A stretch of DNA of 11,680 bases from a virus (IMGVR_UViG_3300028883_000047:1-11680), one strand, 5' to 3'. Shown: positions 377 through 11,680, counted from the first letter of the stretch. Notes: generated by a model from the sequence alone, not told the origin. Made by a program: numbers and translations.

Positions 377-453
377 TGGTGGTAGTGGTGGGGGTCGAAC
401 CCACAAACTCACCCTTATGAGGGGTGCTGTATTACCAATTCACACTCACTACC
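377..453 (-). tRNA. tRNA with CAT anticodon (elongator Met or Ile2/lysidine type)
   Basis: Acceptor GGTAGTG/CACTACC, anticodon arm CACCC-CTCATAA-GGGTG, T arm GTGGG-TTCGACC-CCCAC, A73 and encoded CCA. No initiator features. Confidence 0.9.
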
Positions 454-868
454 ATGTTCTACCGACTGTAAGATGCAAATTCCAGTTCGTCGGCCGCTCT
501 AGCTCTTTCCGAATATCAATAAGAAAAGGGGCGTCAACATCAACAAACCAGTAATGGTCAGGACGATCCCAGCCAGTAGTGTCTCCACTTTGGCGAACTT
601 CGTGTCGGTATTTGAATTCGACTCGCTGTCCATCATACTTTTTCCATAGGTGCATCAGATGATCCGCGGGCTTTTCTCCACGTACGATTGAGACATGAGC
701 ATCCCATGAAGGCTGACATAAGTCAATCCAATATCTGTTTTTGACCCACCAGCGATAATACCGCGTAATCTCGCGGTCTACCTTGAGAATCGCCCACCAA
801 TCTGTTTTTCGCTTCATTCCAGGACGAGGTGGGTCGTACTGAATGATTCCTGAACTTGTATGCCACAT
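449..868 (-). CDS. 2H phosphoesterase family protein (LigT/ThpR/Acb1-like fold)
   Basis: 139 aa with two Hx[S/T] motifs (DAHVSIV, NLHLTVG) at 2H-type spacing. SD AGGAG upstream. Stop TAG lies inside the 5' end of the downstream tRNA. Confidence 0.75.
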   Translation of the reverse strand: MWHTSSGIIQYDPPRPGMKRKTDWWAILKVDREITRYYRWWVKNRYWIDLCQPSWDAHVSIVRGEKPADHLMHLWKKYDGQRVEFKYRHEVRQSGDTTGWDRPDHYWFVDVDAPFLIDIRKELERPTNWNLHLTVGRTW

Positions 869-880
869 CTCTTTATTCTC

Positions 881-887
881 CTAAATA
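881..887 (+). promoter_or_regulatory. Putative T4-like late promoter (CTAAATA)
   Basis: CTAAATA 30 nt upstream of the ATG at 918. The same motif precedes the + strand ORF at 9391. Confidence 0.5.
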
Positions 888-917
888 CATGATATCCCCG
901 ACAACAGGAGAAAAATA

Positions 918-1235
918 ATGGACCAAAATCGTTTACGTAGACTCGCTGGTATGGACACTAGCCTGATGGAACAGTATGAAGCTAGCGTCAAAGAACTGGA
1001 ACTGCTTGAGAAGATGTATCAGGGCAAGCATAACCTCGGAATTGACACCGACGTCATGCCAATCGAAGAAATTCAAAAGCGCATGGAAGCATCATCTCGT
1101 GCATTGGGTATTGCAAACAAACTTCGTGATCCTGGCTATCGCAAACAGCATTTGAGTCGTATCATGTCAAACATGAATACCATTCGTGCAGCTCTGCAGC
1201 ACATGATTAAACAGTCTGAAGAACCACAGATGTAA
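918..1235 (+). CDS. Hypothetical protein (alpha-helical, N-terminal RLRRLAG motif)
   Basis: 105 aa, SD AGGAG 8 nt before ATG, coding-like composition. Confidence 0.8.
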   Translation: MDQNRLRRLAGMDTSLMEQYEASVKELELLEKMYQGKHNLGIDTDVMPIEEIQKRMEASSRALGIANKLRDPGYRKQHLSRIMSNMNTIRAALQHMIKQSEEPQM

Positions 1236-1236
1236 T

Positions 1237-1310
1237 TGGAGACGGGTATCGGAATCGAACCGATGTCCGGAGGGTTGCAATCTCCTATAATACCATTATA
1301 CGAACCCGTC
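1237..1310 (-). tRNA. tRNA-Cys(GCA)
   Basis: Acceptor GACGGGT/ACCCGTC, anticodon loop TTGCAAC, T arm ATCGG-TTCGATT-CCGAT, U73 and CCA. Confidence 0.92.
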
Positions 1311-2000
1311 ATGAGTTTAATAAATCTAATCGAAGCTGACATCCACCAGGAACGAAAACTTCGCGACACTGCTTGGAAGAGCCCACAAGAAGCTATCCGC
1401 TGGATGGAAAAAAATAACTTCCAGAAACTTGGCTCCGGAGCATTCGCTGCTGCTTATGCTGTTCCTGGACACAAACGTGTAGTTCGTCTTTCTTTGGCAG
1501 CGGATAAGTGTTGGACTCACTTCGCTGATTGGGCTATGAATATTACCAGCAACCCCCATCTTCCTCGTATCCAGTGGACTAAGTGGTATGAGGGAACGCG
1601 TAAGGGTAAGCAACAAACATTTGTGTTATCGATCGTGGAACGGTTGGAACGATTTGATGCTCAGGCTATAGCAGGAACGACTGATTTCATTGCTCTAGTA
1701 GAGTTGTACATGTCTGGTAATATTTTCGAAAGCACCATCGAACACATGATAGAAATACGGCTCGAGCGAGAGGGTTTTGATCCCACTACCAAACGGGGTA
1801 GAGACAAGATCGAATTGTATCGTCAACGACATCAAAAAAGTAGATTTAGCAGCACATTAAATGCTGTTCATCAAATGGCAATGAAAACTGGCTGCGAGTA
1901 TGATTTTCATAATGAAAATTTAATGTACCGTCCGCAGACAAAAAACATCGTTCTCATTGACCCATTAGCTGATTTTGATAGCTTAACGCTAGACGATTAA
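1311..2000 (+). CDS. Ser/Thr protein kinase-like protein resembling the T7 gp0.7 kinase domain
   Basis: Gly-rich loop LGSGAFAAAY, catalytic loop YDFHNENLM, metal-binding IVLIDP. ATG 1311 (MSLINLIEA) is preferred over the ORF-track start at 1236, which reads through antisense tRNA-Cys. Confidence 0.8.
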   Translation: MSLINLIEADIHQERKLRDTAWKSPQEAIRWMEKNNFQKLGSGAFAAAYAVPGHKRVVRLSLAADKCWTHFADWAMNITSNPHLPRIQWTKWYEGTRKGKQQTFVLSIVERLERFDAQAIAGTTDFIALVELYMSGNIFESTIEHMIEIRLEREGFDPTTKRGRDKIELYRQRHQKSRFSSTLNAVHQMAMKTGCEYDFHNENLMYRPQTKNIVLIDPLADFDSLTLDD

Positions 2001-2001
2001 T

Positions 2002-2079
2002 TGGTACCCACCCTCGGATTCGAACCGAGATACAAGAGGACTTAAATCTCCCCGCGATTGCCAATTAGCGTAGGTGGGC
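2002..2079 (-). tRNA. tRNA-Leu(TAA), short variable loop
   Basis: GCCCACC/GGTGGGT acceptor, Leu-type D loop AATTGGCAA, anticodon loop TTTAAGT (A31-C39 mismatch), 5-nt variable loop TGTAT, A73 and CCA. Confidence 0.8.
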
Positions 2080-2080
2080 C

Positions 2081-2344
2081 TTAGTCGAAATCAAACTTCA
2101 TGTCATTGGGATCGAATGTGATACCACCAGGTTGTTCTGGCGTCTCAGGTAAATCCGTTTCCATGTACAAAGGATCGAAGTGGCGATTGCGGATAGCTTT
2201 TGCTTGTTCTTCCATTTCCAACTTTCGAGCCATGATTGTTTCATAATCGTCCTCGAAGGGCTTATCTTGATCGAGGTCAAGAACAGTTCCGAGCCCATGA
2301 GTGTTATCAATTTTGATGTGTCTCTTGAAGAAAGGGTTGTCCAT
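2081..2344 (-). CDS. Hypothetical acidic protein
   Basis: 87 aa ORF that fills the gap between two tRNAs exactly. Confidence 0.7.
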   Translation of the reverse strand: MDNPFFKRHIKIDNTHGLGTVLDLDQDKPFEDDYETIMARKLEMEEQAKAIRNRHFDPLYMETDLPETPEQPGGITFDPNDMKFDFD

Positions 2345-2358
2345 AACCCTTATATATG

Positions 2359-2443
2359 TGGTACCGAGGGCGGGATTCGAACCCGCAAGGCCAAAGGCCG
2401 GCAGATTTTAAGTCTGCTGTGTATACCGTTCCACCACCCCGGC
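2359..2443 (-). tRNA. tRNA-Leu(TAA), canonical long variable arm
   Basis: GCCGGGG/CCTCGGT acceptor, GCAGA-CTTAAAA-TCTGC, variable arm GGCC-TTT-GGCC, A73 and CCA. Confidence 0.95.
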
Positions 2444-2444
2444 T

Positions 2445-3590
2445 TTAAAACATATCGTAGTAATTGTAACTCTTGGCTGGAACTTCTTTAGCCATTACAA
2501 GATATTCATCGGTTTCATATACAATCTGACCAGCAGACTCATATGCAACCTGAGTGGAAGCAATATAAATTTCCTCATTGTCGTCGTCATCATCGTCCAT
2601 GTCAATGTCTGCAGCTCTGAGTGCTGCTTTGACCTTTGAATTTTTGCTCGTGTGACTGCCCTTAGGTTTCAGTCTGATATACGTATAGTCATACGAACCT
2701 GAGGGCTTAGCGACGATCGCCTTCTGTGCAAGCTCTCGTTTTTCTTCGGTTCCCTTTTCAACGACTTTGATGATTTCAATTTCGGAACCAATCTGTTGAC
2801 GAACGTCGATGTTCAGTTCATCAATAATTTCATCAACAGGCGATCCGAACCGTAGATGTTCTTCAACGATTGATTGAAGCATATCGAAGCTAAAGATTTT
2901 AGAACGACGCGACAAATCAACGATATCTTTGATCGTTGTAACTGATACCCCATGGTCAGCACAGTATCCTTTGATACTAGCCTCGTCCAACTTCCTGTAA
3001 CGGAAATGATAGTAGATACGACTTGGACGGTTGAGCATGAAGTCGCTGATGTCGATCTCGCTATTCTCTGTCATGATGATCAGACGCTTAGTCTTATCAA
3101 CACCATCCATCAACGACAAAAGAGAATCTTGATGCGTCCCGTCCTGGTGCTTGGACGACGTATACATCTTTCCGAATTCATCAAATACAAGACAACACTC
3201 ACCAAGCGATTGGACGAATTGGTCAAACTGATCGCCAGCGTGAGCATCACGAACGAGAATAACCGGAAGACGGAGAGAGTCGATAACACTATTTGCCAAC
3301 AAAGACATGAACAGAGTTTTACCAGTACCTTTATCACCAGTCAAAAGGATACCAGTTGACATCGGACGATCTTTGTAGGTGGTGATACACTTCTCGACAC
3401 GTTCATGTGCCGTACCGTAAATCTTTTCGGGGATCTGGAGATGATCCTTTATAACAGTGAGATAAAAACCAGAGAACTGACTAAACTGAACTGCATATAC
3501 TCTTGGCGGTAGGTAGTCGAGTGCTGTTTCATCGCTGAGCTGAACAACAGAAACGTGTGTTCCATTGATCAGAAATTTAGTCTGCATCAT
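2445..3590 (-). CDS. AAA+ family ATPase
   Basis: 381 aa. Walker A GDKGTGKT, Walker B LVFDEF, and NRPSR arginine-finger region. Confidence 0.9.
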   Translation of the reverse strand: MMQTKFLINGTHVSVVQLSDETALDYLPPRVYAVQFSQFSGFYLTVIKDHLQIPEKIYGTAHERVEKCITTYKDRPMSTGILLTGDKGTGKTLFMSLLANSVIDSLRLPVILVRDAHAGDQFDQFVQSLGECCLVFDEFGKMYTSSKHQDGTHQDSLLSLMDGVDKTKRLIIMTENSEIDISDFMLNRPSRIYYHFRYRKLDEASIKGYCADHGVSVTTIKDIVDLSRRSKIFSFDMLQSIVEEHLRFGSPVDEIIDELNIDVRQQIGSEIEIIKVVEKGTEEKRELAQKAIVAKPSGSYDYTYIRLKPKGSHTSKNSKVKAALRAADIDMDDDDDDNEEIYIASTQVAYESAGQIVYETDEYLVMAKEVPAKSYNYYDMF

Positions 3591-3615
3591 ATCGTAGTTC
3601 TCATCTTATATTGTT

Positions 3616-3749
3616 TGGCACTTCGGGCAAGAGTTTCACTTGCAGTACCCCCAGATAAAGGGGGCGGTTTAACGACTTACATTATCCCAACCCACTACTT
3701 AACCGGTATTTCGCAGGAATTTCAAACGGTCTATTCAACCTACCGAAGT
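3616..3749 (-). ncRNA. 134-nt tRNA-like RNA with an internal insertion
   Basis: 7-bp acceptor ACTTCGG/CCGAAGT, G73 and CCA. T-like arm GCAAG-TGAAACT-CTTGC, D-like arm GGT-TGAATAG-ACC, hairpin CCCCC-TTTATCT-GGGGG, and an extra CGGTTAA/TTAAACCG helix. Confidence 0.75.
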
Positions 3750-3755
3750 ATTATT

Positions 3756-3845
3756 TGGCGGAAGCGCAGGGATTCGAACCCCGGGACCCCGCGAAGGGTC
3801 GCCTGATTTCAAGTCAGGTGCTTTCGACCACTCAGCCACACTTCC
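3756..3845 (-). tRNA. tRNA-Ser(TGA)
   Basis: GGAAGTG/CGCTTCC acceptor, CCTGA-CTTGAAA-TCAGG, long variable arm, G73 and CCA. Confidence 0.95.
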
Positions 3846-3855
3846 AAATAATTTG

Positions 3856-4128
3856 TTACTCGGCTTTAGAAGGATATCCTTCATCGATAACGGCTTCGCC
3901 AGGAACAGAGGGATAGACCTCGATCGGGGCAGCGTCGTTCGCGTTTAGGTCTTCTTTACCGACTTCACCGAGTTCGTGAGCAGCTTGAGTGCGTCGCTTG
4001 TTGACGCTAGGGTCATTTGTTTCCTGACTGACAGTCAGTGCAGATGCTGCGTCGATTTGATCGAAAGCGGTTGCATTGATAGACAATGTCATCATTGCTG
4101 CCATAGCAGAAATCATTAGGGTTTTCAT
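3856..4128 (-). CDS. Hypothetical exported protein with signal peptide
   Basis: ATG 4128 with SD GGAG. MKTLMISAMAAMMTLSINATA-F looks like a Sec signal peptide; 90 aa. The ORF-track extension to 4332 runs through tRNA genes. Confidence 0.75.
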   Translation of the reverse strand: MKTLMISAMAAMMTLSINATAFDQIDAASALTVSQETNDPSVNKRRTQAAHELGEVGKEDLNANDAAPIEVYPSVPGEAVIDEGYPSKAE

Positions 4129-4170
4129 TTGACGTTCTCCAATTAGTACGTACATCCATTCAGTGTAGCA

Positions 4171-4199
4171 ATCATACTGCTTTGATTGAAGAATATCAA
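4171..4199 (-). promoter_or_regulatory. Sigma70-type promoter
   Basis: TTGATA-17 nt-TATGAT upstream of CDS 3856-4128. Confidence 0.65.
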
Positions 4200-4204
4200 C
4201 AATT

Positions 4205-4296
4205 TGGAGGAAGGTAGAGGAGTCGAACCCCTGCCCGCTCATCACGGACACGCCAGTTTTCAAGACTGGTTGCCATCCTACACGGCCGTACCTTCC
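4205..4296 (-). tRNA. Atypical tRNA-Ser(TGA), possibly 8/4 configuration
   Basis: GGAAGGTA/TACCTTCC can form 8 bp. CCAGT-CTTGAAA-ACTGG, long variable arm TGTCCG/CGGGCA, U73 and CCA, non-canonical A8 C9 and D arm. Confidence 0.8.
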
Positions 4297-4302
4297 ATAA
4301 TT

Positions 4303-4380
4303 TGGCACCCCCTGCAGGATTCGAACCTGCATCTAATCGGGTAGAAGCCGATCGCTCTAGTCCAGTTAAGCTAAAGGGGC
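4303..4380 (-). tRNA. tRNA-Arg(TCT)
   Basis: ATCGG-CTTCTAC-CCGAT anticodon arm, A20, G73 and CCA. Confidence 0.93.
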
Positions 4381-4387
4381 ATAAATT

Positions 4388-4463
4388 TGGTACCCTTGAA
4401 GGGATTCGAACCCCCGACCTCGTCTTTAGGAGAGACGCGTTCTTCCAGCTGAACTACAAGGGT
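4388..4463 (-). tRNA. tRNA-Arg(CCT)
   Basis: ACCCTTG/CAAGGGT acceptor, CGTCT-CTCCTAA-AGACG, A73 and CCA. Confidence 0.93.
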
Positions 4464-4482
4464 AAAAATAAGAAAGGAAAAT

Positions 4483-4558
4483 TGGAGCGGGCAGCGGGGC
4501 TCGAACCCGCGACCTCAACCTTGGCAAGGTTGCGCTCTACCAACTGAGCTATGCCCGC
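4483..4558 (-). tRNA. tRNA-Gly(GCC)
   Basis: GCGGGCA/TGCCCGC acceptor, CAACC-TTGCCAA-GGTTG, U73 and CCA. Confidence 0.96.
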
Positions 4559-4567
4559 ATGTAAGTT

Positions 4568-4575
4568 TATTTATA
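4568..4575 (-). promoter_or_regulatory. T4-type late promoter consensus TATAAATA
   Basis: Exact TATAAATA in the spacer 10 nt upstream of tRNA-Gly(GCC). Confidence 0.5.
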
Positions 4576-4577
4576 AT

Positions 4578-4655
4578 TGGTACCCACCCTCGGACTCGAA
4601 CCGAGACTCATGAACTTTTGAGGATCACCGCTTTGCCAGATTAGCGTAGGTGGGC
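4578..4655 (-). tRNA. tRNA-Leu(CAA), short variable loop
   Basis: GCCCACC/GGTGGGT acceptor, D loop AATCTGGCAAA, TGATC-CTCAAAA-GTTCA, variable loop TGAGT, A73 and CCA. Confidence 0.87.
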
Positions 4656-4660
4656 ATTGT

Positions 4661-4684: not shown

Positions 4685-4692
4685 TAAACCGA

Positions 4693-5448: not shown

Positions 5449-5550
5449 ATTCTCCCACAGGGATCGAACCTGTACCACTTTACCATAAAGAGTCAGCCTA
5501 ACTGTTACTCAACTCAGGGGGAGTGTGTGCTACCATTACACCAAAGAGAA
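5449..5550 (-). ncRNA. tRNA-like RNA with an insertion in place of the anticodon loop
   Basis: Acceptor TTCTCTT/GGGAGAA, D arm GTGT-AATGGTA-GCAC, T arm ACAGG-TTCGATC-CCTGT. Anticodon stem CACT/AGTG encloses about 40 nt. No CCA. Confidence 0.65.
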
Positions 5551-6117: not shown

Positions 6118-6194
6118 TGGCACCCCCGGAGAGATTCGAACTCCCGACTTCAACGTTCGAAGCGTTGCACTCTAGTCCACTGAGTTACGGAGGC
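6118..6194 (-). tRNA. tRNA-Arg(TCG)
   Basis: CAACG-CTTCGAA-CGTTG anticodon arm, A20, G73 and CCA. Confidence 0.92.
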
Positions 6195-6203
6195 AATAAA
6201 ATT

Positions 6204-6279
6204 TGGAGCGGGTGAAGGGACTCGAACCCTCAACATCTGACTTGGAAGGACAGCACTCTACCAATTGAGTTACACCCGC
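6204..6279 (-). tRNA. tRNA-Gly(TCC)
   Basis: GCGGGTG/CACCCGC acceptor, CTGTC-CTTCCAA-GTCAG, U73 and CCA. Confidence 0.95.
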
Positions 6280-6282: not shown

Positions 6283-6406
6283 ACAAGACGCATTTTTGCA
6301 TGGCTGGTGTTCTACCATTGAACTACAGACCAACATTCATCGATCTGGTGGGGTTCGAACCCACAACCCCCAGCTTGGGATAGCATTATTGCTGTTAGCG
6401 TCTTAA
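6283..6406 (-). ncRNA. CAGCAA-scaffold element A enclosing a circularly permuted tRNA
   Basis: Order on the minus strand: AAGACGC..ACAGCAA, GCTGG (anticodon stem 3'), T arm, CAGATCG, linker, TGGTCTG, D arm GTTC-AATGGTA-GAAC, CCAGC (anticodon stem 5'), GCGTCTT. Confidence 0.75.
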
Positions 6407-6410: not shown

Positions 6411-6520
6411 AACAAGGCACGTTTTTTGCGAACCTAGGCGTCCAAAGCCAGCCACGGACTCGAACCGTGTTTCGGGTGTTTTACAGACACATGCTTTTAA
6501 ATTGCTGTGCGTGCCTTTAA
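6411..6520 (-). ncRNA. CAGCAA-scaffold element B with anticodon arm (GTA) and T arm
   Basis: AAGGCACG/CGTGCCTT helix, ACAGCAA, GTGT-CTGTAAA-ACAC, CACGG-TTCGAGT-CCGTG. Confidence 0.7.
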
Positions 6521-6524
6521 TTTG

Positions 6525-6701: not shown

Positions 6702-6739
6702 TATTTAGAAGTATCCATCAAAGAAATGAAAAAAGTCAA
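6702..6739 (-). promoter_or_regulatory. Putative tandem promoters: sigma70-like (TTGACT-18-GATACT) and late-type CTAAATA
   Basis: TTGACT at 6739-6734, GATACT at 6715-6710, CTAAATA at 6708-6702, all upstream of ATG 6671. Confidence 0.45.
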
Positions 6740-6820
6740 GGCACACTTGTCGGGATTGAACCGATCTATTCGATTTTTGAAATCAAACGTTATCCTAAGA
6801 TATTGCTGTTCGTGCCTTTA
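6735..6820 (-). ncRNA. CAGCAA-scaffold element C with anticodon arm (CAA) and T arm
   Basis: AAGGCAC/GTGCCTT helix, ACAGCAA, TTTGAT-TTCAAAA-ATCGAA, TCGG-TTCAATC-CCGA. Confidence 0.7.
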
Positions 6821-7252
6821 AATCGTTTTAATTGCTGCCATAATGACAACACATCCACTAGTGGTATCTTCTAGTTCCATTGAGTGGGTTTCGTTATGAT
6901 TGAATTCATATATGTGACCAAGCTGGACTTCTTCTGTCTGGCCATTCGCTGTTATAGTCGATTTACCAGTTGGTAAGATAACAGGAATTACGTATGTGGT
7001 GTCGGTGAATTTATCACCCAGCTGATCTGTGTGTGGTTCAGCTCCCTGACATACACTAAAATATACCCAATCAACTCGGTTAACATCAACTCCAGCAATT
7101 GCCGCAATTGACTGTTCCAACTCAGAACTAACAGCCCCGTGTTTTTGGAATTTTGCTGGCGTGTTTGTTTTGTAGTTTTCGTACTTGATCGTATCGGCAT
7201 GTGATACTACATGCTGGGGGATCTGTACGCTTCCGTGGTCGATTATATTCAT
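6818..7252 (-). CDS. Cupin/2OG-Fe(II) oxygenase-like protein (Asp/Asn beta-hydroxylase-like)
   Basis: HxD motif (EPHTD) and distal His (YEFNHNETHS) in a beta-strand-rich 144-aa protein. Confidence 0.65.
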   Translation of the reverse strand: MNIIDHGSVQIPQHVVSHADTIKYENYKTNTPAKFQKHGAVSSELEQSIAAIAGVDVNRVDWVYFSVCQGAEPHTDQLGDKFTDTTYVIPVILPTGKSTITANGQTEEVQLGHIYEFNHNETHSMELEDTTSGCVVIMAAIKTI

Positions 7253-7446
7253 TAGTGAACAGACTCGAACGCCTTTTCATAGACGAAGTCGCGGTGTTCT
7301 TCGTTCAACTCGTTGAGCTCGTCTTCCGTCAACTCTTCTCCGGTATCTTCCCAAACTGCGTATGCGATATATGCATCACAAAAGTCTGGATAGTCCCACA
7401 TATGGACATCTTCAACTTCAATGTCTGTTATATTATCGAGGTTCAT
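7252..7446 (-). CDS. Conserved acidic phage hypothetical protein
   Basis: 64 aa with DYPDFCDAYI motif. Stop/start overlaps with both neighbouring CDSs. Confidence 0.8.
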   Translation of the reverse strand: MNLDNITDIEVEDVHMWDYPDFCDAYIAYAVWEDTGEELTEDELNELNEEHRDFVYEKAFESVH

Positions 7447-7760: not shown

Positions 7761-7780
7761 CAGTTACCTTTCTTTTGGTT

Positions 7781-7865
7781 TGGTGGGCCCGGAGAGACTC
7801 GAACTCTCACGCCTCACGGCACTAGAACCTAAATCTAGCGTGTATACCAATTTCACCACAGGCCC
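7781..7865 (-). tRNA. tRNA-Leu(TAG), canonical long variable arm
   Basis: GGGCCTG/CGGGCCC acceptor, CTAGA-TTTAGGT-TCTAG, long variable arm, A73 and CCA. Confidence 0.95.
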
Positions 7866-7866
7866 G

Positions 7867-8127
7867 TTAGTTTATTGGATACAAGACGACGCACCGAGGA
7901 TGTTTTTGTTTAAACTCATCCCACTCGTCTTCTTCCATATCTGCATCTTCTGCCGACCATGATGGAGTCCATACTTCACCGCTCCAGGTCGTTTCAGCAA
8001 CGTAGATAGCATCATTATCAGCACCAGCGCATGGTGAGTATCCGTTACCTTCAGCATCCTTCTGCATGATTACATCAAGTTCAGGATCCATCTCGCTCAG
8101 CTGTTTTATCAGATCTTTTACTTTCAT
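7867..8127 (-). CDS. Conserved phage hypothetical protein
   Basis: MKVKDLIKQLSEMDPELDVIMQKDAEGNGYSP... Start moved to 8127 because the ORF-track extension to 8172 overlaps the RNase P RNA 3' end. Confidence 0.8.
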   Translation of the reverse strand: MKVKDLIKQLSEMDPELDVIMQKDAEGNGYSPCAGADNDAIYVAETTWSGEVWTPSWSAEDADMEEDEWDEFKQKHPRCVVLYPIN

Positions 8128-8136
8128 TTGTTCATC

Positions 8137-8327
8137 GTAACCGATAGCCAGGATTCTGTCAAGGGACATCATTCATCTATTTGCCACAACCCGTCCTCAT
8201 AGGGTAGAGCTTCCCTCGGACTGTTTGTGTTGCATAGGACTTTTATTTGTAGTAAAACGCCGTAGCTCCTACAACATGCTCCGCCTATGTCCTGAGCTTC
8301 CTCACCGTAGTGCGATGCCCTGGTTAC
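8137..8327 (-). ncRNA. rnpB: Minimal type-A-like RNase P RNA (catalytic domain only)
   Basis: P1 GTAACC/GGTTAC, P2 GGCATC/GATGTC, P3 CAC-TACG-GTG. P4 AGC-(U)-CAGGA/TCCTGGCT lies in GAGGAAGCTC and ACAGAATCCTGGCTATC contexts. J5/15 CAA, L15 AAACA/GGGTT, and TAGATGAATGA. Confidence 0.88.
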
Positions 8328-8331
8328 AATT

Positions 8332-8409
8332 TGGTGCCCACGGTCAGAGTCGAACTGACACTCACTACCCTCTCAAGATAGCCGCTTTGCCAGATTAGCG
8401 TACGTGGGC
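8332..8409 (-). tRNA. tRNA-Leu(GAG), short variable loop
   Basis: GCCCACG/CGTGGGC acceptor, D loop AATCTGGCAAA, CTATC-TTGAGAG-GGTAG, variable loop TGAGT, A73 and CCA. Confidence 0.87.
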
Positions 8410-8422
8410 ATAGAAATAAGTT

Positions 8423-8520
8423 GAGCGGCGCTTAATGCTACCGGATGGACTTGAACCACCAACAAGACGTTTTCACGCGTCCGTTCTACGTTGAACTACA
8501 GTGACACTCGCATACCGCTC
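8423..8520 (-). ncRNA. Degenerate tRNA-Phe(GAA)-like core enclosed by an outer helix
   Basis: Core 8436-8505 has D arm GTTC-AACGTA-GAAC, GACG-CGTGAAAA-CGTC, T arm GGTGG-TTCAAGT-CCATC and no CCA. Outer stem GAGCGG/CCGCTC. Confidence 0.6.
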
Positions 8521-8528
8521 GTTACTGT

Positions 8529-8558
8529 AATGTAACATGAAATTGACTTAAAAGTCAA
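8529..8558 (-). promoter_or_regulatory. Sigma70-like promoter overlapping a perfect palindrome
   Basis: TTGACT-18-TACATT with TGn extension. Palindrome TTGACTT-AA-AAGTCAA at 8543-8558. Confidence 0.5.
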
Positions 8559-8566
8559 CAAGAATC

Positions 8567-8633
8567 TGGAGGGTCCCGCTATGTAGGCTTTCGCGTGGCC
8601 CAATCACCGTTAATCAACCTACACGGTGCTGCA
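8567..8633 (-). ncRNA. Possible structured 3' trailer of tRNA-Ser(GCT)
   Basis: CACCGT/ACGGTG hairpin whose loop TGTAGGTT can pair with downstream AGCCTACA. Ends in GGGACCCTCCA. Confidence 0.3.
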
Positions 8634-8635
8634 GT

Positions 8636-8729
8636 TGGCGGAAGGTCAGGGATTCGAACCCTGATGCCCATACAATGGACTTTCGGTTTAGCAAACCGCC
8701 CCGGACTGACCTATCCCGGCACACCTTCC
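8636..8729 (-). tRNA. tRNA-Ser(GCT), atypical D region
   Basis: GGAAGGT/ACCTTCC acceptor, CGGT-TTGCTAA-ACCG, long variable arm GTCCAT/ATGGGC, G73 and CCA. G8 and a 3-nt acceptor-to-D linker are unusual. Confidence 0.85.
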
Positions 8730-9155
8730 TTTAAACGTTTTATGAGACCATTCGGGTGCCTCATCTGTTAGGTCAAGAAAATCCTCGTACCACAAAAATT
8801 TGTTCCCATTCTTCGGTGCGACGAATTTTATTCTCCGTCCACCAAAGTGGAATGCCGGAAATACTACACGCTGCACATCGGGCAAGTATAAAGCGTAGTA
8901 TTCAAAGTCGCCGTCTTGGTACCTGACTTCGTGGTTTCCAGCCTTTGTTGCATACGATGTTGCATTGCGTATTGTTCCGTCAGCACTATGCTTCACTTGG
9001 ATACGCACTAGTCGTTTTCCAGTATCTGCGATGATGTCGTATGGTAAGTGTTCGCTCAACGGAATCGATATATCATATCCTAGTGCCGTCAACGCCGCCA
9101 CAGCCTGCGCCAGCGCTAGATCTGATTTGTTCTTAGTGTGATGTTCCCGTGCCAT
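8688..9155 (-). CDS. PD-(D/E)XK endonuclease, free-standing homing-endonuclease type (I-Ssp6803I/PDDEXK_5-like)
   Basis: HHTKNKSDLA...GYDISIPLSEHLPYDIIAD...RIQVKH gives PYD...QVK catalytic motifs. SD AGGAG. The last 14 codons lie in tRNA-Ser(GCT). Confidence 0.85.
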   Translation of the reverse strand: MAREHHTKNKSDLALAQAVAALTALGYDISIPLSEHLPYDIIADTGKRLVRIQVKHSADGTIRNATSYATKAGNHEVRYQDGDFEYYALYLPDVQRVVFPAFHFGGRRIKFVAPKNGNKFLWYEDFLDLTDEAPEWSHKTFKGRCAGIGQSGAVC

Positions 9156-9179
9156 AACATTCTCCTGATGTTGTGGCCG

Positions 9180-9187
9180 TATTTATG
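9180..9187 (-). promoter_or_regulatory. Putative late promoter CATAAATA for the endonuclease gene
   Basis: ATAAATA core 25 nt upstream of ATG 9155. Confidence 0.5.
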
Positions 9188-9282
9188 CTCTATGGGACAC
9201 CTGCGCCAGGTTCTCGCATATCTACCATTAGGTTTGAATTTGCCTTATTCTTCAATGGGTTATAAACTTGTTGACTTTGTTC

Positions 9283-9289
9283 CTAAATA
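9283..9289 (+). promoter_or_regulatory. Putative late promoter CTAAATA
   Basis: Same motif as 881-887, about 100 nt upstream of the + strand ORF at 9391. Confidence 0.4.
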
Positions 9290-9390
9290 TTTACGGATGC
9301 CCCGCGTAAGGCGTTCAACTCCCTTAGTTATTACGCAGTTAAGTTCGAGGTTTTTCTCGGACATCACTCTCAACAATAGGAGGACAAATC

Positions 9391-9549
9391 ATGAAATTGT
9401 CAGACATCAAGGATGTGGACTTTGATTGTGATGAGGAACTCCGAGAAAGTTTTCACGAAAAGGCGAAAGTCGTAAAGAAAAACAGAGCTCGGTACTTGCC
9501 ATCACTTGAAGAGATGGTCAAGGAACTTCATGAAGAGAACTCTTCGTGA
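9391..9549 (+). CDS. Small hypothetical protein (52 aa; absent from the ORF track)
   Basis: MKLSDIKDVDFDCDEELRESFHEKAKVVKKNRARYLPSLEEMVKELHEENSS. Strong SD AGGAGG, followed directly by a terminator. Confidence 0.8.
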   Translation: MKLSDIKDVDFDCDEELRESFHEKAKVVKKNRARYLPSLEEMVKELHEENSS

Positions 9550-9550
9550 C

Positions 9551-9588
9551 CGAAAAAAGGGGGCCTTAAATAAGGCCCCCTTTTTTCG
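9551..9588. terminator. Bidirectional intrinsic terminator
   Basis: AAAAAA-GGGGGCCTTA-AA-TAAGGCCCCC-TTTTTT between convergent CDSs. Confidence 0.9.
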
Positions 9589-9593
9589 ACTTA

Positions 9594-10007
9594 TTAGGTA
9601 CTGAGGCGACGCCCTCCTATCAGCTCAGCAAGGTACTCGCGTGACTCGTCCGACAACCCATCATACTCAGCGTTTCCGATGTCTTCATGAAGCTGTAATA
9701 TTTCAGGAGTGGCTTCTCCTTCCAGGTCGTACCCTCGTTGGAGGCACTCGTGCTGAAATACGGCGGTCAGTATCTCACCGAATTCTTCCGCTTTTACCAC
9801 CGTCTTGTTCCGTCGAGGCGGATCGGCGATCTTCTTCCTGTATGAAAGACCTGTTCCTCGCAGGCCGACGTTTGCGTGAACGCCTTGTTTTCCGACGGAT
9901 AGAGATGTTCCGCGAGGACCAATCCCAACACTTGATACTCCTTGCTTCCCGATGTTTATTCGGAAAAACTTACCGAGCGAGAAAATCTTTCGAAATCGAA
10001 AACCCAC
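9594..10007 (-). CDS. DUF4236 domain-containing protein
   Basis: GTG start at 10007 with SD GGAGG. MGFRFRKIFSLGKFFRINIGKQGVSSVGIG...NVGLRGTGLSY is the DUF4236 pattern. Confidence 0.85.
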   Translation of the reverse strand: MGFRFRKIFSLGKFFRINIGKQGVSSVGIGPRGTSLSVGKQGVHANVGLRGTGLSYRKKIADPPRRNKTVVKAEEFGEILTAVFQHECLQRGYDLEGEATPEILQLHEDIGNAEYDGLSDESREYLAELIGGRRLST

Positions 10008-10041
10008 GACTTGACCTCCATTTAATGTAGTACGTCTTCGC

Positions 10042-10070
10042 ATTATAGGAGCAAATCCCGTTGGGGTCAA
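10042..10070 (-). promoter_or_regulatory. Near-consensus sigma70 promoter
   Basis: TTGACC-17 nt-TATAAT upstream of the DUF4236 gene. Confidence 0.8.
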
Positions 10071-10074
10071 CGTT

Positions 10075-10084
10075 CACACCTTCC
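10075..10084 (-). repeat. 10-bp copy of the tRNA-Ser(GCT) 5' end (GGAAGGTGTG)
   Basis: Identical to 8720-8729. The two copies bracket the 8730-10074 gene block. Confidence 0.6.
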
Positions 10085-10090
10085 ATAATA

Positions 10091-10193
10091 AACAAGACGC
10101 ATCACCCCTGCCTTTGGGGCGAATATCCGTTGGCTGTTACACCGCCGGAATGGACTCGAACCATCAATTTTTGGTTTGCTGCTTGCGTCTTTA
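10091..10193 (-). ncRNA. CAGCAA-scaffold element D with T arm and two hairpins
   Basis: AAGACGCA/TGCGTCTT helix, GCAGCAA, GATGG-TTCGAGT-CCATT, CCG..CGG hairpin, GCCCC-AAAGGCA-GGGGT. Confidence 0.7.
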
Positions 10194-10298
10194 ATAGCGC
10201 CGCCCCACTGCCGTCAAGGTCCCTCATCCCAAGCATGACCAAGGGTGATGACGCTATCCCTCCCTAGGGGGTTTGTTACGAACAGTCGGAGCTATTAA
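10191..10298 (-). ncRNA. Unknown multibranched structured RNA (108 nt)
   Basis: TTAATAGC/GCTATTAA terminal helix, ACTG/CAGT, CGTCA/TGACG, GGTC/GACC and two side hairpins. No ORF. Confidence 0.5.
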
Positions 10299-10299
10299 T

Positions 10300-10385
10300 T
10301 GGTAGCGGGAGTAGGATTTGCACCTACGAAGCCTTGCGGCGGTGGGTTATGAGCCCAGCTACTTTGTCTACTTGTATATCCCGCG
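10300..10385 (-). tRNA. Initiator-type tRNA-fMet(CAT) with a long variable arm
   Basis: C1/T72 mismatch, GGG/CCC in the anticodon stem, loop CTCATAA, 14-nt variable region CGCCGCAAGGCTTC, T loop TGCAAAT, A73 and CCA. Confidence 0.82.
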
Positions 10386-10393
10386 ATAGAATT

Positions 10394-10468
10394 TGGTCCA
10401 CCCGGTAGGATTCGAACCTACCTCTCCTGCTCTTCAGGCAGGCGCTAATCCAACTCAGCTACAGGTGG
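10394..10468 (-). tRNA. tRNA-Phe(GAA)
   Basis: CCACCTG/CGGGTGG acceptor (C1-G72), CCTGC-CTGAAGA-GCAGG, A73 and CCA. Confidence 0.9.
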
Positions 10469-10479
10469 ATGGAAGAAAT

Positions 10480-10541
10480 TGGGGACCGTCGACGGGATTA
10501 ACCGTCATTAATCTCACGCAAGTCGTCACTTGGAACGGTCC
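10480..10541 (-). ncRNA. 62-nt tRNA-His-like mini RNA
   Basis: G-1, acceptor GACCGTT/GACGGTC, C73 and CCA. T-like arm GACGG-TTAATC-CCGTC and a single middle hairpin CAAGT-GACG-ACTTG. Confidence 0.6.
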
Positions 10542-10549
10542 ATAGAATT

Positions 10550-10623
10550 TGGCAGGCCCCCACGGATTCGAACCGCGACTAAGACTTTTGGAGAGTCGTG
10601 TGCTGCCGTTACACTAAGGGCCC
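10550..10623 (-). tRNA. tRNA-Trp(CCA)
   Basis: Anticodon loop CTCCAAA in stem CGACT/AGTCT, G73 and CCA. Confidence 0.92.
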
Positions 10624-10631
10624 ATTATTTA

Positions 10632-10691
10632 TCACTGAAAATTGGCTTTAATCCAACGCCAGTATTCGCTAATATCTGCTGCTTCTGTCAT
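10632..10691 (-). CDS. Small ORF (19 aa)
   Basis: MTEAADISEYWRWIKANFQ with SD GGAG 9 nt upstream. Fills the spacer between tRNA-Arg and tRNA-Trp. Confidence 0.45.
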   Translation of the reverse strand: MTEAADISEYWRWIKANFQ

Positions 10692-10717
10692 TTTACTATT
10701 CTCCGTTGATATGAATT

Positions 10718-10795
10718 TGGCACCCACCACAGGATTCGAACCTGCATCCACTTGATTCGTAGTCAAGCACTCTAATCCAATTGAGCTAAGTGGGC
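10718..10795 (-). tRNA. tRNA-Arg(ACG)
   Basis: CTTGA-CTACGAA-TCAAG anticodon arm, A20, G73 and CCA. Confidence 0.94.
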
Positions 10796-10802
10796 ATTAA
10801 AT

Positions 10803-10942
10803 AACAAGACACAATTTTTTCCGACAGGCGCCTTTACCAGACTTGGCCATACCCCCAAAGGATGATTGGTGGGGGCAGCGGGATTCGAACCACGCGAATA
10901 CCTGTTTTACCAAAGGAGTTGAGTTGCTGGTTGTGTCTTTAA
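10803..10942 (-). ncRNA. CAGCAA-scaffold element E enclosing a circularly permuted tRNA with encoded CCA
   Basis: Order on the minus strand: AAGACACAA..CCAGCAA, ACAGG, TATTC, T arm, TGCCCCC-A-CCA, 10-nt linker, GGGGGTA, D arm GCC..GGC, CCTGT, TTGTGTCTT. Confidence 0.82.
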
Positions 10943-10944
10943 AC

Positions 10945-11023
10945 TGGTTGTGAGTTGTGGTAACGATCCACGGGGGTAGCTACTCCTAACGGCTCATGAC
11001 GCCGTCCCTTCCTTATACTCACA
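10945..11023 (-). ncRNA. D-armless tRNA-like RNA with CAT anticodon
   Basis: Perfect acceptor TGTGAGT/ACTCACA, A73 and CCA. ACGGC-GTCATGA-GCCGT arm, 11-nt unpaired D-replacement loop, long variable arm, aberrant T loop ATCGTTA. Confidence 0.65.
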
Positions 11024-11029
11024 TTAATT

Positions 11030-11107
11030 TGGTGTTCCGTACGGGATTCGAACCCGTGTTTGAAGATTGAAAGTCTTCTGTCCTAGACCTGACTAGACGA
11101 ACGGAAC
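11030..11107 (-). tRNA. tRNA-Glu(TTC)
   Basis: GTTCCGT/ACGGAAC acceptor, GAAGA-CTTTCAA-TCTTC, A73 and CCA. Confidence 0.93.
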
Positions 11108-11112
11108 AAAAT

Positions 11113-11190
11113 TGGCGTCATCGACGAGATTCGAACTCGCATCTACAAGATTGAAAGTCTTGTGTTCTAGGCCAATTAAACTACGATGAC
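11113..11190 (-). tRNA. tRNA-Glu(TTC), second copy with a divergent body
   Basis: GTCATCG/CGATGAC acceptor, CAAGA-CTTTCAA-TCTTG, G73 and CCA. Confidence 0.9.
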
Positions 11191-11195
11191 AAATT

Positions 11196-11279
11196 TGGTG
11201 GGTGCAGATGGAGTCGAACCACCACGGTCTGAGACGTCTGGTTTACAGCCAGGTGAGCCCGCCAATGCTCAGTACACCC
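11196..11279 (-). tRNA. tRNA-Tyr(GTA)
   Basis: GGGTGTA/TGCACCC acceptor, loop CTGTAAA, long variable arm, A73 and CCA. C at position 8. Confidence 0.9.
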
Positions 11280-11285
11280 AAAATT

Positions 11286-11370
11286 TGGTGGATGAGGTAG
11301 GAATCGAACCTACACGCCCTAAGGGAACTGGGTTACAGCCAGTCGAGCCCACCACCTGCTCAACTCATCC
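11286..11370 (-). tRNA. tRNA-Tyr(GTA), second copy
   Basis: GGATGAG/CTCATCC acceptor, ACTGG-CTGTAAC-CCAGT, long variable arm, A73 and CCA. Confidence 0.9.
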
Positions 11371-11468
11371 AAGTACGGCTGTTACTACGCTTTGTGGCCA
11401 CGCCACGTACCAACAGCACTAACCGACTCACCTACACTCAGAGTGGCCACTCCTTCTTAGCGAGCCTC

Positions 11469-11540
11469 GCACAACGACAGGATTCGAACCTGCGTCCCCG
11501 GCTGTGCGCCGGTATCCTATCCAGACTAGACGACGTCATA
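11469..11540 (-). pseudogene. tRNA-like sequence with a Glu/Asp-type body, degenerate anticodon loop and no CCA
   Basis: TATGACG/CGTTGTG acceptor, D arm GTCT..GGAT, CCGGC-GCACA-GCCGG (no U33), canonical T arm GCAGG-TTCGAAT-CCTGT. Confidence 0.65.
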
Positions 11541-11545
11541 CTATT

Positions 11546-11619
11546 TGGCTACCCCTCCTGGATTTGAACCAGGGACGACTGAGTCAGAGTCAGTAATGTT
11601 ACCGCTACACCAAGGGGCA
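11546..11619 (-). tRNA. tRNA-Gln(CTG)
   Basis: U1-A72 acceptor TGCCCCT/AGGGGTA, ACTGA-CTCTGAC-TCAGT, G73 and CCA. Confidence 0.93.
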
Positions 11620-11625
11620 ATAATT

Positions 11626-11680
11626 TGGTACCACTCCTCGGATTCGAACCGAGACTCACTGCGTTCTGAGCACAGCCGCT
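11626..11680 (-). tRNA. tRNA-Leu(CAG), short variable loop (5' part outside the window)
   Basis: CTGTG-CTCAGAA-CGCAG, variable loop TGAGT, T arm CTCGG-TTCGAAT-CCGAG, A73 and CCA. Confidence 0.82.

What the first reader, a model, noticed from the sequence alone, without database searches (positions are those of the whole stretch)
377..11680. The cluster looks like a self-contained tRNA maturation, repair and decoy module
Seen together: 25 tRNAs with encoded CCA, spacers often only 1-10 nt, an RNase P RNA, a 2H phosphoesterase, permuted and truncated tRNA mimics, and an oxygenase. Inference: a coordinated system in which a relaxed-specificity RNase P releases both standard tRNAs and non-standard mimics from polycistronic transcripts, while the 2H enzyme resolves 2',3'-cyclic phosphate ends from cleavage or ligation. 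This links several observations into one hypothesis and is not shown by the sequence.
Basis: inference. Interest (0 to 1): 0.7.

Follow-up and report, generated by a model that had tools for sequence, protein, structure and literature searches.

The report
Phage tRNA island with separate RNA-care systems
A giant-phage fragment packs about 25 tRNA genes next to a shrunken RNase P ribozyme gene, five Y-RNA-like tRNA mimics and a 2H RNA-end enzyme, but related phages carry these parts independently, so this is a mosaic of separate tRNA-care systems and not one self-contained machine.

Summary
Observation confirmed. The window is the first 11.7 kb of a 75.7-kb IMG/VR jumbo-phage fragment, about 24% complete. 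On the minus strand it holds:
- 24 complete tRNAs plus one cut by the window end, 24 of the 25 with encoded CCA
- 8 of 24 spacers of 4-9 nt
- a 197-nt RNase P RNA with the catalytic domain only (8134-8330)
- five 'CAGCAA' scaffold RNAs and further odd tRNA-like RNAs
- a 2H phosphoesterase (449-868)
- a 2OG-oxygenase-like ORF

Interpretation partly supported. RNase P RNAs lie inside tRNA arrays on the tRNA strand in 12 of 12 phage loci. The scaffold family borders tRNAs on the same strand in 74 of 74 loci.

The parts are not inherited together.
- 22 scaffold-bearing genomes have no RNase P RNA.
- 12 RNase P-bearing records have no 2H.
- The closest complete relative has 2H but neither RNA.

The scaffolds are YrlA-like Y RNAs. 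Records that carry them almost always encode a DUF2828 protein (24 of 26, against 0 of 18 without scaffolds), and its model folds like Ro60. This fragment holds no such gene.

The 2H gene lies near an RNA ligase in relatives, which fits end-healing. An Acb1-like role is not excluded.

No rnpA or RtcB was found, so the cluster is not self-contained. This scan had already noted mini RNase P RNAs in other phage DNA.

The parts
377..453 (-). tRNA-Met (CAU) with encoded CCA; its first 5 nt overlap the end of the 2H ORF
449..868 (-). 2H phosphoesterase, 139 aa, phrog_12204
   Evidence: Invariant HxS and HxT motifs; AF2 pLDDT 85.5; best 32 structural matches all 2H, Z 3.8-6.2; PHROG hit
918..2000 (+). 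Two plus-strand ORFs (105 aa and 254 aa; the second weakly like T7 gp0.7-type protein kinase) that interrupt the minus-strand array
1237..1310 (-). tRNA-Cys (GCA), CCA encoded
2002..2079 (-). tRNA with anticodon UUA (would read UAA), CCA encoded
2359..2443 (-). tRNA-Leu (UAA)
2445..3590 (-). AAA-type ATPase (phrog_2376); directly downstream of the 2H gene in relatives L237 and L238
3616..3749 (-). 134-nt tRNA-like RNA ending in CCA, with extra hairpins
   Evidence: Fold z -2.9, closed by an acceptor-like stem; coordinates from note e1-5385948
3756..3845 (-). tRNA-Ser (UGA)
4205..4655 (-). Block of six tRNAs (Ser, Arg-UCU, Arg-CCU, Gly-GCC, Leu-CAA) with spacers of 6-19 nt
5449..5550 (-). tRNA-like RNA with an insertion of about 30 nt in the anticodon loop and no CCA
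   Evidence: Rfam tRNA 30.7 bits; fold
6118..6279 (-). tRNA-Arg (UCG) and tRNA-Gly (UCC), 9-nt spacer
6284..6404 (-). CAGCAA scaffold RNA, permuted tRNA-like (T arm, acceptor stem-loop, D arm)
   Evidence: Rfam YrlA 37.7 bits, E 2e-5, below the gathering score of 69
6413..6517 (-). CAGCAA scaffold RNA with a T arm and other hairpins
6737..6818 (-). CAGCAA scaffold RNA, short form with a T arm
6818..7252 (-). 2OG-Fe(II)-oxygenase-like ORF, 144 aa
   Evidence: Atlas features 0.95 and structure TM 0.70-0.76; no HMM hit
7781..7865 (-). tRNA-Leu (UAG)
8134..8330 (-). RNase P RNA with the catalytic domain only (P1-P5, P15-P17; no S-domain, no P18); starts 4 nt after the CCA of tRNA-Leu-GAG
   Evidence: close homologue L016 scores 49.7 bits, E 5e-16, with RF00010
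8332..8409 (-). tRNA-Leu (GAG)
8436..8505 (-). Weak tRNA-like RNA (Rfam only, 36.3 bits), no CCA
8636..8729 (-). tRNA-Ser (GCU)
8688..9155 (-). PD-(D/E)XK_5 endonuclease ORF; its 3' end overlaps tRNA-Ser
   Evidence: Pfam PF11645, E 5.5e-20
9552..9587 (.). Perfect GC-rich hairpin flanked by A and T runs, terminator-like in both directions
   Evidence: Sequence; weak Rfam terminator-type hits
10093..10191 (-). CAGCAA scaffold RNA with a T arm and two hairpins
   Evidence: (z -3.35)
10303..10385 (-). Atypical tRNA-like RNA (CAU loop, extra arm, ends in CCA)
   Evidence: Rfam tRNA 37.5 bits
10394..10795 (-). tRNA-Phe, tRNA-Trp and tRNA-Arg (ACG), with a 62-nt acceptor-plus-T-arm mini tRNA-like RNA at 10480-10541
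   Evidence: z -2.7
10805..10939 (-). CAGCAA scaffold RNA: permuted tRNA-like with a 7-bp acceptor stem, internal ACCA and a 10-nt linker
   Evidence: Rfam YrlA 19.6 bits
11030..11680 (-). tRNA-Glu x2, Tyr x2, Val, Gln and Leu-CAG (cut by the window end); spacers of 4-6 nt

Best explanation
The window is part of a jumbo-phage 'tRNA island', an accessory region built by accretion. At least three tRNA-related systems that are inherited separately sit side by side in it.

(1) tRNA supply with its own 5'-end maker.
- About 46 tRNA genes carry encoded CCA and a conserved A/U-rich trailer. They are transcribed in several multi-gene units.
- A 197-nt RNase P RNA with only the catalytic domain sits among them. 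Inferred: it works with the host's RnpA protein and raises or safeguards 5'-leader removal during infection.

(2) Y-RNA-like RNAs.
- The CAGCAA scaffolds are stem-closed, YrlA-type tRNA mimics.
- In other phages they go with a DUF2828 protein whose model folds like Ro60. Inferred: they form an RNA quality-control particle.
- Copies with a 7-bp acceptor stem and NCCA may in addition be cut by RNase P.

(3) RNA-end healing.
- The 2H phosphoesterase probably opens 2',3'-cyclic phosphate ends for an ATP-dependent RNA ligase. That ligase neighbours the 2H gene in relatives but is not on this fragment.
- A CCA-adding-type enzyme lies at about 52 kb on the contig.

The systems share a purpose, keeping tRNAs usable under host attack. 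They are not one obligate, self-contained module.
For: RNase P RNA
- The structure is supported by covariation.
- RNase P-type elements lie inside tRNA arrays on the tRNA strand in 12 of 12 phage loci.
- There is a size series from about 200 to 358 nt, several of them over Rfam's cut-off.
- The C-domain alone, without P18, is catalytically active in vitro (PMC5839562).

Scaffold RNAs
- At least 88 stem-closed copies occur in IMG/VR.
- Covariation is seen in the basal, T, acceptor-like and D stems.
- The nearest tRNA is a median of 12 nt away and on the same strand in 74 of 74 cases.
- DUF2828 is present in 24 of 26 scaffold-bearing records and in 0 of 18 without scaffolds. The RNA lies 15-150 nt upstream of the gene in several.
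- The best 13 PDB matches of the DUF2828 model are all Ro60/TROVE, E 3e-10 to 3e-5, over the full length.

2H enzyme
- Motifs and fold are shown.
- An RNA ligase (PF09414) lies 0.8-2.7 kb away in G001, G005 and G006.
- In cultured phage CBB the order is RNA ligase, HNH, DUF2828, membrane protein, 2H, and further on a CCA-adding enzyme.
- A PolyA_pol-family gene is on the own contig.

Independence of the parts
-.

The general idea that jumbo phages combine tRNAs with RNA repair genes is published (PMC7824862).
Against: - No activity or expression data exist for any part.
- The contig covers only about 24% of the genome, so whether a Ro-like gene, a ligase or a kinase is present cannot be settled here.
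- The reverse association is weak. Only 4 of 19 DUF2828-selected large contigs, and 13 of 80 loci within 4 kb, have a scaffold that model R2 detects. Many Ro-like genes therefore lack this RNA type or have divergent partners.
- The record sets were chosen for carrying one part each and are not phylogenetically independent.
- Rfam does not recognise the window's RNase P RNA.
- The 2H model's single best match is the anti-CBASS nuclease Acb1 (Z 6.2, tied within 1 Z with RNA-acting 2H enzymes).
Confidence: 0.65

Rival explanations
1. One reading: one coordinated, self-contained module. A relaxed-specificity RNase P releases tRNAs and mimics from polycistronic transcripts, and the 2H enzyme resolves the cyclic-phosphate ends made in the same pathway.
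For: All parts lie within 11 kb on one strand with short spacers. The two closest fragments, G005 and G006, also carry 2H and a mini RNase P RNA about 5 kb apart in a tRNA array. The ribozyme lacks the S-domain.
Against: The parts separate in related and unrelated phages. RNase P leaves 3'-OH and 5'-phosphate ends, not cyclic phosphates (established enzymology), so the 2H enzyme has no role downstream of it. No rnpA or RtcB was found. Plus-strand genes and a terminator-like hairpin break up the transcript.
Confidence: 0.1
2. The scaffold RNAs and other mimics are decoys that soak up host tRNA-cutting or tRNA-modifying defence enzymes, independent of any Ro-like protein.
For: They display tRNA arms on non-decoding bodies. 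They sit in arrays thought to counter tRNA-targeting defences (PMC7824862). This fragment has six scaffolds and no Ro-like gene.
Against: The conserved parts are the basal stem with CAGCAA and CUUG, not an anticodon loop. The family tracks a Ro60-like gene almost perfectly in scaffold-bearing genomes and often lies directly upstream of it.
Confidence: 0.15
3. The 2H protein is an Acb1-like immune-evasion enzyme that destroys cyclic-nucleotide defence signals. It has nothing to do with tRNA ends, and its place in the tRNA array is an accident of accessory-gene clustering.
For: The best structural match is phage FBB1 Acb1 (Z 6.2, 104 residues aligned). The size is similar, 139 against 137 aa. 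More distant homologues (about 50% identity) have no tRNA within 10 kb.
Against: Z values for RNA-acting 2H enzymes (Usb1 5.9, archaeal 2'-5' ligase 5.6, LigT 5.0) are tied within 1 Z. An RNA ligase neighbours the gene in four relatives and in CBB, where a Ro-like gene and a CCA-adding enzyme are close too.
Confidence: 0.25

Closest known systems
Bacterial type-A RNase P RNA (Rfam RF00010; E. coli M1 RNA) and S-domain-less forms (Thermoproteaceae type T, PMC3579882; engineered C-domain RNAs, PMC5839562)
   Same: P1-P5, P15-P17, a P4 with a bulged U, the GAGGAA, UAGAUGAAUGA and ACAGAA tracts, and a J16/15 GGGU facing the CCA.
   Different: 197 nt. The S-domain is replaced by a small nested hairpin and there is no P18. 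It is encoded by a phage inside its tRNA array. It is below Rfam's thresholds, and no phage rnpA was found.
YrlA / bacterial and phage Y RNAs with Ro60 (Rsr) (Rfam RF02553; PMC4201824)
   Same: A stem-closed RNA with the T arm, acceptor stem-loop and D arm in that order. Members with a 7-bp acceptor stem resemble M. smegmatis YrlA, which RNase P cuts. The family goes with a Ro60-fold protein.
   Different: The conserved motif is CAGCAA...CUUG, not GNCGAAN0-1G. The partner is the DUF2828+DUF7788 family, not Pfam TROVE (0 of 22 scaffold genomes have TROVE). The RNAs are multi-copy, embedded in tRNA arrays and carry variable 'cargo'. No partner gene lies on this fragment.
Jumbo-phage tRNA provisioning plus RNA repair gene sets (PMC7824862); T4 Pnkp/Rnl1 repair
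   Same: Many tRNAs together with a 2H phosphoesterase, ATP-dependent RNA ligases, a Ro/TROVE-type protein and CCA-adding enzymes in the lineage.
   Different: That survey does not mention RNase P. Here a ribozyme gene and six Y-like RNAs lie within the array. The ligase is missing from the fragment and no RtcB occurs in the lineage.
Acb1 anti-CBASS 2H nuclease (PDB 7t26)
   Same: A small 2H fold with two HxT/S motifs, encoded by a phage.
   Different: No sequence-level similarity was detected. The neighbourhood points to RNA repair genes.

Membership tests
Bacterial type-A RNase P RNA (RF00010) | P4 helix with a bulged U, flanked by the conserved CR-I and CR-V tracts | tested here: met
   AGC(U)CAGGA pairs with UCCUGGCU. 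P4 is 97.6% paired across 13 sequences, with compensatory changes in 4 of 8 pairs, and was not part of the search model.
Bacterial type-A RNase P RNA (RF00010) | Catalytic-domain helices P1-P3, P5 and P15-P17 | tested here: met
   83% of cells paired against 66% after shuffling (0 of 500); 35 pairs change on both sides; slid controls give 42% or less.
Bacterial type-A RNase P RNA (RF00010) | Specificity domain (P7-P14) and P18 | tested here: not met
   Only about 45 nt lie between the two P5 strands, forming a nested hairpin. No P18.
Bacterial type-A RNase P RNA (RF00010) | Rfam gathering score (100 bits) | tested here: not met
   No hit in the window. Close homologue L016 scores 49.7 bits. 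Other short phage forms score 118-146 bits.
Bacterial type-A RNase P RNA (RF00010) | Cleaves pre-tRNA 5' leaders | not testable with these tools
   Needs an in vitro assay.
YrlA Y RNA (RF02553) | tRNA-like module with T arm, acceptor stem-loop and D arm closed by a long stem | tested here: met
   Met by copies 6284-6404 and 10805-10939. Family-wide covariation. The other three copies carry only a T arm.
YrlA Y RNA (RF02553) | 5' GNCGAAN0-1G motif for Rsr binding (PMC4201824) | tested here: not met
   All copies have CAGCAA (variants CCGCAA) instead.
YrlA Y RNA (RF02553) | Rfam gathering score (69 bits) | tested here: not met
   37.7 and 19.6 bits.
YrlA Y RNA (RF02553) | Encoded with a Ro60 orthologue | tested here: inconclusive
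   No TROVE or DUF2828 gene on the 75.7-kb fragment. In other phages the family goes with a Ro60-fold DUF2828 gene (24 of 26 records).
2H phosphoesterase superfamily | Two H-x-S/T-x motifs | tested here: met
   H58-x-S60 and H132-x-T134 are invariant in 10 homologues.
2H phosphoesterase superfamily | 2H fold | tested here: met
   The best 32 structural rows are all 2H proteins (Z 3.8-6.2, 96-115 residues aligned); the next rows are unrelated at Z 2.6 or less. Z below 8 is modest.
2H phosphoesterase superfamily | Match to a curated sequence model | tested here: not met
   No Pfam, NCBIfam or PDB sequence hit. The only hit is phrog_12204, function unknown.
Acb1 anti-CBASS nucleases | Specific similarity to Acb1 above other 2H enzymes | tested here: inconclusive
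   Acb1 Z 6.2 against Usb1 5.9 and archaeal ligase-like 5.6, which counts as tied.
rsr-yrlBA-rtcBA type RNA repair operon | RtcB ligase encoded together with Ro and Y RNA | tested here: not met
   No RtcB on the own contig or in the 2H-bearing relatives G001-G008.

The most novel reading that the evidence does not exclude
The phage RNase P RNA, the Ro60-like/Y-like RNA particles and the 2H-ligase pair are interchangeable cassettes of one anti-defence toolkit for tRNA upkeep. The scaffold copies that carry a 7-bp acceptor stem plus NCCA (18% of family members, about 11 times chance) are cut by RNase P into two-piece tRNA-like Y RNAs with a CCA end and no anticodon. That end would let the Ro-like particle enter tRNA repair or charging pathways.
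Probability: 0.15. Interest if true: 0.85.

Novelty: new variant of a known kind. Interest (0 to 1): 0.6.

Why it matters
It is already known that jumbo phages carry tRNAs and RNA repair genes. Two points are new here, within the limits of the literature I could search.

First, a ribozyme gene (RNase P RNA reduced to its catalytic half) belongs to the phage tRNA arrays.

Second, a very common, unnamed phage RNA family (the CAGCAA scaffolds) is a Y-RNA-like partner of a widespread 'domain of unknown function' protein that folds like Ro60. This assigns a probable role to DUF2828/DUF7788 proteins, of which more than 550 loci occur in IMG/VR. It also offers a cultured system, Pectobacterium phage CBB, for testing viral Ro-Y RNA biology.

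The negative result matters too. Physical clustering inside a tRNA island should not be read as one pathway.

Tried and rejected
- Rfam, at gathering and at E-value thresholds, on the whole window and on 271 nt alone, found no RNase P RNA. The RF00010 'own' search produced no candidate.
- blastn of the window and of the ribozyme against cultured phages gave only tRNA hits or nothing.
- No RNA sequencing run was listed for the window.
- The promoter/terminator scan gave counts equal to shuffled sequence and missed the obvious hairpin at 9552-9587.
- A PDB sequence-profile search with the 2H alignment gave nothing meaningful. Foldseek alone was weak, with a best E of 0.06.
- Model R2 also hits tRNA-tRNA junctions. 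The two hits in G012 were such false positives, so only full-length hits of about 45 bits or more were counted.
- Model R1 misses long-form RNase P RNAs (G016, G019, G022), so RF00010 was added.
- The reciprocal test from DUF2828 to scaffolds was weak: 13 of 80 loci within 4 kb and 4 of 19 large contigs.
- hhalign of DUF2828 against phage TROVE proteins matched only over the vWA part (probability 64%).
- The first attempt to locate NCCA used a wrong offset and was corrected.
- Rnl1 and polynucleotide kinase families were not searched.

Full report
**Setting.** The window is bases 1-11680 of a 75,680-bp IMG/VR virus record that CheckV rates about 24% complete, so the genome is probably near 300 kb. 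Nothing in the cultured-phage collection is close at the DNA level. The best cultured relative by the 2H protein is Vibrio phage 2.275.O, 349 kb, at 60.6% identity.

**Observation: tRNAs and ORFs.**
- ARAGORN finds 24 tRNAs in the window, all on the minus strand, and a 25th cut by the window end. The contig has 46, in two arrays.
- CCA is encoded in 45 of 46. It is nearly always followed by AAUU, AUUU or a similar tract.
- Eight of 24 spacers are 4-9 nt.
- Minus-strand ORFs between the tRNAs include an AAA ATPase, a DUF2202 protein, a PD-(D/E)XK_5 endonuclease, a DUF4236 protein and a sheath-C-like fragment.
- Two plus-strand ORFs (918-2000) and a strong bidirectional hairpin (9552-9587) show that the region is not a single transcript.

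**RNase P RNA: the element in the window.** Rfam reports nothing. Read on the minus strand, 8134-8330 nonetheless has:
- P1 (GUAACC/GGUUAC), P2, and a small P3 with a UACG loop
- GAGGAA followed by a P4 strand with a bulged U, which pairs with the strand after ACAGAA
- P5, J5/15 CAA, P15-P17, a J16/15 GGGU, and UAGAUGAAUGA

PHROG matches to the overlapping ORF 7867-8172 start at its residue 16. The RNA therefore probably lies in non-coding sequence.

**RNase P RNA: homologues.**
- A pattern scan of IMG/VR returned 113 loci. Seventeen passed a P4-pairing test (at least 7 of 8 pairs).
- Twelve of these lie in tRNA arrays on the tRNA strand. Two look host-derived and three are one repeated chance match.
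- A covariance model (R1) found further copies in two loci that had been fetched through the 2H protein.
- On the 13-sequence model alignment, 83% of cells pair against 66% after shuffling (0 of 500), and slid controls give 42% or less. P4, which the model did not contain, is 97.6% paired with four compensatory pairs.
- In whole-record searches RF00010 scores the close homologue L016 at 49.7 bits and other short phage forms (207-270 nt) at 118-146 bits. The sizes run continuously up to 358 nt.
- C-domain RNAs without P18 are active in vitro (PMC5839562).
- No rnpA was found in 17 phage records. A host protein partner is therefore inferred.
- I found no paper describing a phage RNase P RNA.
- Earlier notes of this scan report the same family on other DNA.

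**Scaffold RNAs: structure and spread.**
- Five elements in the window, and a sixth at 44837-44896 of the contig, share the pattern AAAG-stem-NN-CAGCAA ... T arm ... stem'-CUUG, and the basal stems covary.
Eighty-eight copies have the closing stem, mostly on 100-300 kb contigs.
- An alignment of 41 copies shows compensatory changes in the basal stem, the T stem, a 7-bp acceptor-like stem and the D stem.
- The order is T arm, acceptor stem-loop, D arm. This is the YrlA design, and copy 6284-6404 scores 37.7 bits with the YrlA model. The Rsr-binding motif GNCGAAN0-1G of YrlA (PMC4201824) is absent.
- The nearest tRNA is a median of 12 nt away and always on the same strand (74 of 74).
- Twelve of 68 unique copies have NCCA directly after the acceptor 3' strand, followed by a short linker. 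Window copy 10805-10939 is of this kind.
- M. smegmatis YrlA, which also has a 7-bp stem, is cut by RNase P and receives CCA (PMC4201824).

**Scaffold RNAs: partner protein.**
- Pfam TROVE is absent from all 22 scaffold-selected genomes.
- Pectobacterium phage CBB annotates a DUF2828 'RNA-binding protein' two genes from its 2H homologue.
- DUF2828 is present in all 22 scaffold-selected genomes and in G019 and G022, the only RNase P-selected records with true scaffolds. It is absent from all 18 scaffold-negative records.
- The two exceptions are small fragments: the own contig (24% complete) and G007 (15% complete).
- The RNA often lies 15-150 nt upstream of the gene on the same strand.
- The protein consists of DUF2828 plus DUF7788 and has an invariant DxSGS MIDAS motif.
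- The best 13 PDB matches of its AlphaFold model (pLDDT 74.5) are all Ro60/TROVE proteins, over the full length. They include a Thermus phage Ro60 (PMC12135203).
- The reverse direction is weak. Only 13 of 80 DUF2828 loci, and 4 of 19 large DUF2828 contigs, hold a scaffold that R2 detects.
- CBB itself has at least four true scaffolds in its tRNA region.

**2H enzyme.**
- The two HxS/T motifs are invariant.
- The model's best 32 structural matches are all 2H proteins: Acb1 at Z 6.2, Usb1 5.9, archaeal 2'-5' ligase-like 5.6, LigT 5.0. Unrelated folds follow at Z 2.6 or less.
- The family occurs in 76 cultured jumbo phages, everywhere annotated 'hypothetical'.
- In the closest relatives it lies in tRNA arrays. 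At about 50% identity it does not.
- A 341-aa PF09414 RNA ligase lies 0.8-2.7 kb upstream in G001, G005 and G006, and 7.5 kb away in G004.
- In CBB the order is RNA ligase, HNH, DUF2828, membrane protein, 2H, and then a CCA-adding enzyme 3 kb on.
- The own contig has a PolyA_pol-family gene at about 52 kb but only a 19-bit ligase-like hit.
- This context favours end-healing, the role proposed for jumbo-phage 2H enzymes in PMC7824862. An Acb1-like role stays open.

**Test of the linking hypothesis.** I searched 45 IMG/VR records and three cultured phages for each part. Records were chosen for carrying one part each: 2H (G001-G011), RNase P RNA (G012-G023) or scaffolds (G024-G045).

| Part searched | 2H-selected (11) | RNase P-selected (12) | Scaffold-selected (22) |
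|---|---|---|---|
| RNase P RNA | 4 | 12 (by selection) | 0 |
| 2H | 11 (by selection) | 0 | 1 (weak) |
| True scaffolds | 1 | 2 | 22 (by selection) |

- G001, the closest complete relative (363 kb, 2H 76% identical), has 2H, tRNAs, an RNA ligase and a CCA-adding-type enzyme. It has no RNase P RNA, no scaffold and no Ro-like gene.
- Vibrio phage 2.275.O has 2H only.
- CBB has scaffolds, a Ro-like gene, 2H and a ligase, but no RNase P RNA.
- Only G005 and G006, both close fragments, repeat the pairing of 2H and a mini RNase P RNA.
- RtcB is absent from the 2H lineage.
- RNase P chemistry does not produce cyclic phosphates (established knowledge).

Pairwise links do hold: tRNA array with RNase P RNA, scaffold with Ro-like protein, and 2H with RNA ligase.

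**Caveats.** Many records are fragments. The sets were chosen for one part each and are not independent. No expression data could be obtained. All functions are inferred.

Noticed in passing
window 449-453: The last codons of the 2H ORF (UGG-UAG) overlap the first 5 nt of tRNA-Met. RNase P cleavage at the tRNA 5' end would remove the stop codon from the 2H message, so tRNA processing and 2H translation may exclude each other.
   Followed up: no
window and contig, 3' flank of nearly every tRNA: CCA is followed by a conserved AAUU, AUUU or AAYU trailer in almost all 46 tRNAs. The acceptor loops of some scaffold RNAs in other phages read GCCA-AUU in the same way. This may be a 3'-processing signal (A/U-rich, RNase E-like).
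   Followed up: partly
window 2002-2079 (-): tRNA with anticodon UUA and encoded CCA, which would read the UAA stop codon. L019 also carries one.
   Followed up: no
window 4578-4655, 8332-8409, 11626-11703 (-): Three tRNA-Leu genes are only 78 nt long and so lack the long variable arm typical of bacterial tRNA-Leu.
   Followed up: no
window 918-2000 (+): A plus-strand two-gene cassette sits inside the minus-strand array. The 254-aa ORF weakly matches T7 gp0.7-type protein kinase (phrog_15752, E 7e-7).
   Followed up: no
window 8506-8635, 10200-10302, 10940-11029, 11371-11467 (-): Further non-coding stretches of 90-130 nt with obvious hairpins between tRNAs. They are not assigned to any family.
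   Followed up: no
L273:2124-2249(-), L274:2928-3048(-), L279:1979-2093(-), L297:3864-3982(+): A Y-like scaffold RNA lies 15-30 nt upstream of the start of the DUF2828 (Ro60-fold) gene in several unrelated phage contigs. G019 and G022 use the variant motif CCGCAA.
   Followed up: partly
L262 (G002:34400-34757), L261 (G008:194096-194453): A full-length (358 nt) type-A RNase P RNA over Rfam's cut-off (168 bits) occurs in two large phage records that also carry the 2H family. G002 also has a TROVE protein.
   Followed up: no
L237:10001-11572, L238:9995-11565: In two relatives the 2H gene is followed directly by the AAA ATPase homologue (53-54% identity). In the window that ATPase lies 1.6 kb upstream of 2H, which suggests a possible functional pair.
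   Followed up: no
L291, about 120 nt upstream of the DUF2828 gene start (4001): A D-arm-like GUAGCUCAGUGGUAGAGCA lies in a different arrangement just upstream of a DUF2828 gene that has no R2 hit. It may be a divergent partner RNA.
   Followed up: no
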